Assembly: GCF_964194155.1 (NCBI RefSeq) | Contig: NC_135899.1 | Coordinates: 2,542,001 to 2,606,000, forward strand | DNA length: 64,000 bases | Direction: 5' to 3' | DNA from: Cetorhinus maximus | Taxonomy: Eukaryota | Shown here: positions 6,508-7,482 of the stretch, piece by piece | How positions within the stretch are numbered: position 1 is the first letter of the stretch | Layout: every line of letters begins with the position of its first letter | Made by a program: the position numbers and the translations under genes | The notes under the pieces: model-generated | What the model was told of the DNA's origin: nothing | Database searches by the model: none | What the model saw: the letters and a program-made list of their open reading frames with translations, nothing else

Positions 6508-7482
6508 ATGGCTGACAACAGCCAGAAGGCGGAAAACGTGGGCGATTCAGGGGGAGGCGGGGGAGCCACCCCGCCCCAGGCTCGAACGACAACCGAGAGA
6601 GGGGGGACCAAGAAGAAGAAGAAGCAGCAGCAGCAAAATAATCAGCAGCAGCAGCAAAATAATCCGCAGCAGCAGCAGCAACAAAATCCGCCGCCGCCCC
6701 CGCCGCCGCCGCAAAATGTGGCGGCGCCCCCGCCCCGCCGCAAGAAGGGACCGACCGTGACCGAGCAGATCCTCCACGTGGCGGCGGCCACCAAGGCCCG
6801 GCGGGGCATCTCGCTGGCCGCCCTCAAGAAGGCGCTTTCGGCCAAGGGCTACGACGTGAGCCGCAACAACACGCGGGTCAACCAGACGGTCAAGCAGCTG
6901 GTCCGGAACGGCTCGCTGGTGCAGACGGCCGGGGTGGGGGCCACGGGCTCCTTCCGCTTGAACCGCGGGTCGGGCGGCGAGGTGGCGGGAGCCGGAGCCG
7001 GCGGGAGAGGCGGCGGCGGCGGCCCCCGGAAGGAGAGGAGGGAAACGGCCAAGAGGAGGGCGGCGGGCCGCCGGCGGTCGCCCCCGTCCCTGCCCCACCC
7101 TCACCCCCTGCAGCACCAGCGGGGCCCCCGGCTCCGCAGGAGGACCTACAGCCGCCGCAAAGCCCCGGCCAAGCAGCCCCAGCGCAAAGCCCGCCGGCGG
7201 GCCCCCCGCTCCCGACGCCGCGGCGGCGGCAAACCCCCCCGCCGGGCGTCGCCGCCCAGGAGCGCCCGGGCGCGGGTCCGCCTGAAGGGCCGAGCCGCCC
7301 CCCACCACCCGCACCCGCAGCGCGGGCGACCCCACCTCTACCGCAAATACAAGGCGGTGCGGGGCGCCAGGAGGGCGGCGCCCGCCGCTCACGGGCACCG
7401 GGGGAGGCCGCCCGGAGCCAGGGGGAAGCGGCTGGTGGGGCGGCAGAGGAGGGTCACCAGGCGGGTGGTCGGAAAATGTTAA
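6508..7482 (+). CDS. Arginine-rich H1-derived, protamine-like protein B (324 aa)
   Basis: First ATG at 6508 (aggATGG). Intact H1 globular domain GPTVTEQIL...ISLAALKKALSAKGYDV...GSLVQTAGVGATGSFRLN, polyQ/polyP N-tail, Arg-rich C-tail, stem-loop. Confidence 0.9.
   Translation: MADNSQKAENVGDSGGGGGATPPQARTTTERGGTKKKKKQQQQNNQQQQQNNPQQQQQQNPPPPPPPPQNVAAPPPRRKKGPTVTEQILHVAAATKARRGISLAALKKALSAKGYDVSRNNTRVNQTVKQLVRNGSLVQTAGVGATGSFRLNRGSGGEVAGAGAGGRGGGGGPRKERRETAKRRAAGRRRSPPSLPHPHPLQHQRGPRLRRRTYSRRKAPAKQPQRKARRRAPRSRRRGGGKPPRRASPPRSARARVRLKGRAAPHHPHPQRGRPHLYRKYKAVRGARRAAPAAHGHRGRPPGARGKRLVGRQRRVTRRVVGKC

What the first reader, a model, noticed from the sequence alone, without database searches (positions are those of the whole stretch)
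6508..7482. Protamine-like H1: intact globular domain with an Arg/His-rich tail and a polyQ/polyP head
Seen: the 172-aa tail (6964-7479) has about 47 Arg versus about 11 Lys and about 9 His by hand count. It has RRR clusters, RSP/ASP sites, two HPHP..QRG repeats, two RGRP cores and a terminal Cys. The N-tail is encoded by (CAG)n/(CCG)n runs. Established: somatic H1 tails are Lys/Ala-rich with almost no Arg, while winged helix plus Arg-rich tail defines PL-type sperm proteins, some of which are cleaved to protamines. Inference: a shark PL or protamine precursor that still uses histone-type 3' processing.
Basis: partly seen in the sequence, partly recalled or inferred. Interest (0 to 1): 0.82.

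Follow-up and report, generated by a model that had tools for sequence, protein, structure and literature searches.

The report
Arginine-rich shark linker histone variant
This is a real, intact gene for an unusually arginine-rich linker histone that belongs to a little-noticed family shared by sharks and rays; it probably helps pack DNA in developing germ cells, but nothing yet shows that it is a sperm protamine-like protein or a protamine precursor.

Summary
In detail: a 324-aa intronless H1 with an intact globular domain, a 172-aa tail (47 Arg, 11 Lys, 9 His) and a histone 3' stem-loop. It is not a frameshift artefact: 18 named relatives from 13 shark and ray species were found, and a horn-shark orthologue shares the tail frame and the polyQ head. 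Their tails are Arg-enriched too (R/(R+K) 0.38-0.67); this copy is the extreme (0.81). Filing it as a PL or protamine precursor is not supported. The globular domain is of the replication-dependent somatic type (57-59% identity, against 30-38% to H1.0/H5/H1.10), whereas described PLs are H5-related, polyadenylated and often lack the beta-hairpin that is intact here. Arg+Lys is only 25%, no cleavage site is conserved, and the 80% GC tail alone predicts the Arg:Lys ratio. Best reading: an elasmobranch H1t-like germline variant in a cluster of divergent stem-loop histone genes. Twelve of 18 relatives keep an AT-hook-like C-terminal motif that has decayed here. No expression data could be reached, so the germline role is inferred.

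The parts
6508..7482 (+). Intronless H1-variant ORF, 324 aa, about 35 kDa, 57 Arg / 24 Lys
   Evidence: GC 0.74, GC at fourfold sites 0.91
6508..6747 (+). N-terminal tail: MADNS start, Gly run, TPPQAR motif, K6, polyQ, polyP; the TPP..R motif marks one sub-type (window gene, Heterodontus P0002, five skate proteins)
6623..6711 (+). 21-24-bp tandem repeat of short CAG runs followed by CCG runs (polyQ/polyP)
   Evidence: the Heterodontus orthologue has 16 Gln in its N-tail
6751..6963 (+). Winged-helix globular domain of replication-dependent H1 type, beta-hairpin GVGATGS intact (6931-6951)
   Evidence: PF00538; PDB sequence search; model helices 84-94, 103-112, 121-134; Foldseek
6964..7479 (+). 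Arg-rich disordered C-terminal tail, 172 aa, net charge +55, two S-P sites
7129..7248 (+). Densest basic stretch (aa 208-247: 16 Arg, 20 Arg+Lys of 40); among the least conserved parts of the tail
7426..7452 (+). Decayed copy (KRLVGRQRR) of the family's C-terminal AT-hook-like motif (consensus KRPVGRPRK)
   Evidence: consensus; 12 of 18 relatives carry GRP[RK][KRL]
7541..7556 (+). Histone 3' stem-loop
7568..7581 (+). Purine-rich element ending in GAGCTG, candidate U7-binding histone downstream element (consensus recalled, not tested by a tool); AATAAA hexamers at 7502 and 7613
3316..3888 (-). Paralogue: H1 with degenerate globular domain, stem-loop present
   Evidence: PF00538 15 bits, below cut-off; RF00032
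10406..10948 (-). Paralogue: divergent 180-aa H1 with polyP head and short acidic/Arg tail, stem-loop present
14341..14800 (-). Probable further histone gene lost in the assembly gap (N 14501-14700); only its 3' end and stem-loop are readable, so its identity as H1 is a guess
15996..16664 (-). Paralogue: 222-aa Arg-enriched H1 with a canonical AT-hook core (RRPRGRPRK) and acidic end, conserved across sharks

Best explanation
An elasmobranch linker-histone variant derived from the replication-dependent H1 branch, working like mammalian H1t (H1.6). Shown: intact nucleosome-binding globular domain, long basic disordered tail, stem-loop, a family conserved across sharks and rays, residence in a cluster of divergent histone genes. 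Inferred: it is transcribed from a non-canonical promoter in germ cells (spermatocytes or early spermatids), processed by the stem-loop/U7 route, binds the nucleosome dyad through the winged helix and holds linker DNA more tightly through Arg, remodelling chromatin while nucleosomes still exist and before the separate shark protamines arrive. It acts whole, not as a cleaved precursor. The extra Lys-to-Arg shift in this lineage was probably helped by strong GC bias filtered by selection to keep charge.
For: Domain type: 78 bits to chicken GH1 and 66-73 to human H1.1-H1.4 against 22-32 to H5/H1.0/H1.10; 57-59% against 30-38% identity. Hairpin glycines invariant in 16 of 16. 18 named relatives in 13 species with tail R/(R+K) 0.38-0.67, against 2 Arg in the displayed residues 128-211 of human H1.1. 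No H1 box, CCAAT or TATA match within 250 bp upstream of 4 of 4 readable H1 variants, while H2A has TATA and CCAAT (motifs recalled). Neighbouring H2B is an Arg/Cys-rich variant whose best single-domain PDB match is testis H2B type 1-A, by a small margin (144.6 against 140.9 bits). Nearest Atlas clusters are auto-named protamine-like and spermatid-specific H1 (0.90-0.91; a lead only). H1.6 is a testis H1 that sits in the replication-dependent cluster.
Against: No expression, protein or tissue data were reachable; germline expression is inference only. The tree has no canonical H1 outgroup and the pairing with Heterodontus P0002 is 90/96, not starred. Base composition alone predicts the Arg:Lys ratio. 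The start of transcription is unknown, so the promoter scan is weak. A catshark sperm proteome paper shows no histone in its text or its one supplementary file, though its tryptic design and database make that uninformative. One paper states that sharks use PLs, citing Bloch 1976, which leaves room for the first rival.
Confidence: 0.5

Rival explanations
1. A true protamine-like sperm protein or precursor: made in spermatids, displaces histones, and its Arg-rich tail is cut off as a protamine-like peptide.
For: Winged helix plus a 40-aa stretch with 40% Arg and 50% Arg+Lys fits the description of PLs in PMC13148410; Gly-rich linker after the globular domain could be protease-accessible; Atlas neighbours are named protamine-like; one-way Lys-to-Arg change on this branch, 6 columns to 0.
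Against: Replication-dependent rather than H5-type domain; hairpin intact; the one vertebrate PL-I listed (Mullus) is polyA+; Arg+Lys 25% overall, longest Arg run 3; linker, His repeats and Cys not conserved; the tail alone finds only H1 clusters at under 0.8 in the Atlas. From recall, not tested: dogfish protamines Z1-Z3/S4 and spermatid proteins S1/S2 do not resemble this tail, and Z1 and Z2 have their own cDNAs.
Confidence: 0.15
2. A differentiated-cell or embryonic variant (for example an H5-like role in nucleated erythrocytes, or oocyte/early embryo), Arg-rich for tighter compaction but not male-germline-specific.
For: Arg enrichment is also a feature of erythrocyte H5; several divergent paralogues leave room for several tissues; nothing in the sequence specifies testis.
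Against: H5 is H1.0-type and polyA+, unlike this gene; rapid tail turnover and an accompanying divergent H2B fit germline histones better (inference).
Confidence: 0.15
3. A weakly constrained, low-expression H1 paralogue whose Arg, Gly, Pro and repeat content mostly reflects GC-biased gene conversion and slippage, with no special function for Arg.
For: Tail 80% GC, fourfold sites 91% GC; Gly+Ala+Arg+Pro is 67%, highest of 19; shuffled R/(R+K) 0.87; long terminal branch 0.62 against 0.15 for its sister; the family's hook motif has decayed here; a neighbour (3316-3888) is degenerating; the window's own protein was not returned by either search, while its neighbour's was.
Against: Globular domain 92% identical to a Carcharodon paralogue and 88% to Heterodontus; Lys never became Glu (0 of 20 aligned Lys; 11 became Arg) and the tail has only 3 acidic residues (1% of shuffles that low), so charge is selected; Arg enrichment is family-wide and old; the H2A beside it has the same GC3 (0.88) and is near-canonical.
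Confidence: 0.18
4. The Arg-rich tail is a frameshift or assembly artefact of an ordinary Lys/Ala-rich H1.
For: 80% GC sequence is error-prone and there is an assembly gap 7 kb away; the +1 frame holds Ala runs; one of six relatives (P0012) scores 13 points better with two shifts at penalty 15.
Against: Frameshift-aware alignment needs no shift for 5 of 6 relatives at penalties 15 and 20, including the closest; in-frame motifs PRKERRE, L.RKYK.VRG.RRA, HRGR and KR..GR run from start to end of the tail; other frames hold 1-3 Lys.
Confidence: 0.02

Closest known systems
Elasmobranch 'histone H1-like' predicted proteins (Heterodontus francisci P0002, Carcharodon carcharias P0003 and 16 others)
   Same: Same subfamily: globular domain 73-92% identical among the rows, Arg-enriched tail, shared tail motifs; P0002 also has the polyQ head.
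   Different: The window copy has the highest Arg share (0.81), 9 His against 0-3, a longer polyP and a decayed hook motif. The relatives carry automatic names only.
Mammalian H1.6 (H1t)
   Same: Replication-dependent-type H1 inside a histone cluster; testis variant; raised Arg and few S/T-P-x-K sites (recalled).
   Different: Not shown to be orthologous (mammalian clade); far longer, much more Arg-rich, polyQ/polyP head; expression unknown here.
PL-I sperm proteins (Spisula, Mytilus, tunicates, Mullus surmuletus)
   Same: Winged helix plus an Arg/Lys-rich disordered tail with a protamine-like stretch.
   Different: PLs are described as H5-derived, Mullus PL-I is polyA+, and the hairpin is dispensable or missing; here the domain is replication-dependent type, stem-loop present, hairpin intact, Arg+Lys 25%.
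Avian H5 / H1.0
   Same: Arg-enriched tail for tighter compaction.
   Different: Globular domain only 34-38% identical; polyadenylated orphan genes.
Plant GH1-HMGA proteins
   Same: H1 globular domain combined with AT-hook motifs in the tail.
   Different: Three to six hooks in plants; one variant hook in most shark relatives, a canonical one in the 15996-16664 paralogue, a decayed one in this gene. An analogy, not shared descent.

Membership tests
Linker histone H1 family | Winged-helix globular domain between disordered tails | tested here: met
   PF00538 59 bits, cut-off 22.4; three helices, tails low pLDDT; Foldseek top hits are H1
Replication-dependent histone genes | No introns, 3' stem-loop, cluster location | tested here: met
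   eight stem-loop-bearing loci in 1.7-23.5 kb
Replication-dependent histone genes | Canonical H1 promoter (H1 box, CCAAT, TATA; recalled) | tested here: not met
   only a GC box in 250 bp upstream; start site unknown
Canonical somatic H1 | Lys/Ala/Pro-rich tail with almost no Arg | tested here: not met
   47 Arg against 11 Lys; human H1.1 shown
Protamine-like (PL) sperm proteins | Winged helix plus 30-50-aa Arg/Lys-rich stretch (PMC13148410) | tested here: met
   aa 208-247: 16 Arg, 20 Arg+Lys of 40
Protamine-like (PL) sperm proteins | Derived from the H5/H1.0 replication-independent branch | tested here: not met
   78 against 32 bits; 57-59% against 30-38%; no rooted tree was possible
Protamine-like (PL) sperm proteins | Arg+Lys about 35-50 mol% (threshold recalled) | tested here: not met
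   25% whole protein, 34% tail
Protamine-like (PL) sperm proteins | Polyadenylated mRNA (Mullus PL-I) | tested here: inconclusive
   stem-loop present, but AATAAA at 7502 and 7613 too; no transcript data
Protamine-like (PL) sperm proteins | Major protein of mature sperm that displaces histones | not testable with these tools
   no expression or proteome access; uninformative
Protamine precursor | Conserved cleavage site and a matching mature protamine | tested here: inconclusive
H1t-like germline H1 (functional class) | Testis-restricted expression in meiotic or post-meiotic cells | not testable with these tools
   no expression data
AT-hook proteins | RGRP core in a basic context (PMC13638997) | tested here: inconclusive
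   two RGRP cores flanked by Q/H and H/P; family motif has V for the first R; Pfam found no AT-hook in 13 of 13 proteins at E up to 10

The most novel reading that the evidence does not exclude
Sharks and rays evolved their own protamine-like sperm protein from a replication-dependent H1, independently of the H5-derived PLs. This gene is the most advanced copy, caught mid-way by stepwise Lys-to-Arg substitution rather than frameshift, still processed by the stem-loop route and perhaps releasing its tail. It sits in an undescribed germline histone cluster that also holds H1s with AT-hooks, a vertebrate parallel of plant GH1-HMGA.
Probability: 0.15. Interest if true: 0.8.

Novelty: new variant of a known kind. 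Interest (0 to 1): 0.5.

Why it matters
If germline-expressed, the family gives a graded living series (tail Arg share 0.38 to 0.81) in which to test how a linker histone drifts toward a protamine-like protein, and whether GC bias or selection drives it, in a vertebrate group whose sperm-protein genes are barely mapped. It would add an independent origin from the replication-dependent branch to the H1-to-protamine hypothesis. If somatic or silent, it is a curated-annotation gain only.

Tried and rejected
Frameshift origin of the tail, recent or compensated: rejected. Accession numbers and gene order of relatives could not be retrieved, so linkage in other species rests on shared contig lengths only. 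Matching the tail to dogfish protamines and spermatid proteins: no tool supplied those sequences; stays untested. Pfam AT-hook: none in 13 of 13. Shared promoter motif among four H1 upstream regions: only G/C runs. Folding 7530-7585 gave a longer alternative pairing that includes the downstream element; not taken as evidence. Atlas search with the tail alone: best 0.79, lead level only. The structure model has mean pLDDT 55 and did not build the wing strands, so the hairpin claim rests on sequence. Rooted tree: not possible, since no named canonical H1 was held as a protein; the 472 unnamed representative hits (150 listed) were not analysed, except rows that the named searches also returned. 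Lewis 2004 (PMC384709) was not held. Literature on this family: none seen (3 papers; 0; 20 listed of 421 and 251; 2; 2; 0; 1; 0; 10 of 15); the library lacks most subscription papers, including the older dogfish protein chemistry.

Full report
Observation. The ORF at 6508-7482 (+) is open and encodes 324 aa. The globular domain is PF00538 at aa 82-152 and a histone stem-loop lies 58 nt after the stop. The CAG and CCG runs are only 2-4 units long, inside a 21-24-bp repeat. In 2000 dinucleotide shuffles of the 80%-GC tail, Arg and His counts were above chance (0.15% and 0.05%), but R/(R+K) averaged 0.87 against 0.81 observed, and 29% of shuffles were stop-free. The counts are right; the Arg:Lys ratio alone is what the base composition predicts.

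Not an artefact. Two searches listed 15 rows each and together gave 18 named relatives from 13 shark, skate and ray species, all automatically named H1-like or uncharacterised. No row was from outside elasmobranchs, but both lists stopped at 15, so absence elsewhere is not shown. The closest, Heterodontus P0002, shares the N-terminal TPP..R motif, the polyQ and tail motifs from start to end. A frameshift-aware alignment needed no shift for 5 of 6 relatives at penalties 15 and 20; P0012 gained 13 points with two shifts at penalty 15. In an unrooted tree of 33 rows the window protein pairs with P0002 at 90/96 on a long branch, 0.62 against 0.15. The neighbouring H1 is 84% identical to a Carcharodon protein, which points to a lamniform-like shark.

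What is family-wide and what is private. Tail R/(R+K) is 0.38-0.67 in the 18 relatives and 0.81 here, against 2 Arg in the displayed residues 128-211 of human H1.1. Of 20 aligned Lys in the P0002 tail, 11 are Arg here and none is Glu; 2 of 32 Arg are Lys. Of 12 columns where the two differ K/R, seven paralogues polarise 6 as Lys-to-Arg on this branch, none as the reverse, 3 as changes on the other branch, and 3 are unresolved. His enrichment (9 against 0-3), the HPHP repeats, the long polyP and the terminal Cys are not conserved in the orthologue. The best-conserved end-of-tail feature is KRPVGRPRK, with GRP[RK][KRL] in 12 of 18 relatives. It resembles an AT-hook (RGRP core in a basic context, PMC13638997, passages) and has decayed to KRLVGRQRR here. 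Pfam did not call an AT-hook in 13 of 13 proteins, so this is a motif-level lead.

Lineage of the globular domain. It scores 78 bits to chicken GH1 and 66-73 to H1.1-H1.4, but 22-32 to H5, H1.0 and H1.10; identities in structural alignments are 57-59% against 30-38%. PLs are described as derived from H5 (PMC13148410, passages; PMC11607694, passages and section 10). Mullus PL-I is listed as polyA+ and its beta-hairpin as dispensable when nucleosomes are absent (PMC4584325, passages). Here the hairpin glycines are invariant in 16 of 16 aligned proteins, which argues for a protein that still binds nucleosomes. Arg+Lys is 25% overall and the longest Arg run is 3. One PL feature is met: a 40-aa stretch with 16 Arg and 20 Arg+Lys, though it aligns poorly with the orthologue.

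Context. The first 23.5 kb hold eight stem-loop loci: a near-canonical H2A, four readable divergent H1 genes, one gene lost in an N gap, an H4 with several substitutions and an Arg/Cys-rich H2B whose best single-domain PDB match is testis H2B type 1-A by a small margin. No H3 appears among ATG ORFs of 90 aa or more. None of the four H1 upstream regions matched an H1 box, CCAAT or TATA pattern in 250 bp, while H2A had TATA and CCAAT (motifs recalled). Relatives of two paralogue types share a contig length in Heterodontus, Carcharodon and Heptranchias, which suggests conserved linkage but not adjacency. A scan of 132 of the 307 flanking stop-to-stop frames found only a SAPC2_N exon and two reverse-transcriptase fragments.

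Mechanism. Most likely (0.5) the gene is an H1t-like germline variant: stem-loop mRNA, winged helix on the nucleosome, Arg-rich tail gripping linker DNA during meiotic or early spermatid remodelling, acting uncleaved. Domain, tail, 3' end, family and cluster are shown; germline expression and timing are inferred from composition, promoter divergence, neighbours and the Atlas names (automatic names, a lead). H1.6 is the precedent for a testis H1 in a replication-dependent cluster (PMC9526256 and PMC3380720, passages). Rivals are GC-driven drift under charge conservation (0.18), true PL or precursor (0.15), a somatic or embryonic differentiation variant (0.15) and artefact (0.02). GC bias may contribute under any of them: fourfold sites are 91% GC.

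Literature and limits. Ten searches showed no paper on this family (listings only, some truncated), but the library lacks most subscription papers. A catshark sperm proteome (PMC11083954, passages and one supplementary file) mentions no histone or protamine; trypsin and a generic database make that uninformative. PMC8812575 and PMC9635857 were seen as passages. Statements on dogfish protamines and on the 35-50% PL threshold are recalled, not tested.

Verdict. A real, probably undescribed elasmobranch variant of linker histone H1, with this copy the Arg-rich extreme. It may work somewhat like a PL but fails the tested PL membership features. New variant of a known kind; interest 0.5, rising to about 0.8 if sperm nuclei contain it or its tail.

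Noticed in passing
window 15996-16664 (-): H1 paralogue with a canonical AT-hook core (RRPRGRPRK) and an acidic end; 11 named shark/ray relatives, 4 of 11 with the GRP[RK][KRL] motif; architecture recalls HMGA-type hooks on an H1.
   Followed up: partly
window 21716-22027 (+): H4 variant: Thr at position 1 and four further differences (V-I, A-S, K-R, M-L) from the best PDB H4, with stem-loop; unusual for so conserved a protein.
   Followed up: partly
window 22963-23343 (+): Divergent H2B with an Arg-rich N-tail, several Cys and a stem-loop with one changed base; resembles a sperm-type H2B variant.
   Followed up: partly
window 3316-3888 (-): H1 with a degenerate globular domain (15 bits, below cut-off) but open frame, SPRK motif and intact stem-loop; pseudogene or fast-evolving variant.
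   Followed up: partly
window 10406-10948 (-): 180-aa H1 with polyP head, shortened hairpin and short Glu/Arg tail; very long branch in the tree.
   Followed up: partly
window 14501-14700: Assembly gap covering most of a stem-loop gene (stem-loop at 14341-14356, minus strand).
   Followed up: no
window 43361-43789 (+): First exon of a SAPCD-family gene (PF25825). From recall human SAPCD1 lies in the MHC class III region and the main histone cluster in the extended MHC, so this may be MHC-linked; one paper search found nothing.
   Followed up: partly
window 8132-8481 and 11148-11818: A 75-bp tandem array (4.7 copies, 96% matches) downstream of the gene and an AT-rich array upstream of the 10406 gene.
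   Followed up: no
window 61114-61977 (-): Fragments of a LINE reverse transcriptase.
   Followed up: no
window 6508-7482: The window's own protein was not returned by either homologue search although the neighbouring H1's was; the gene may be missing from this genome's annotation.
   Followed up: no
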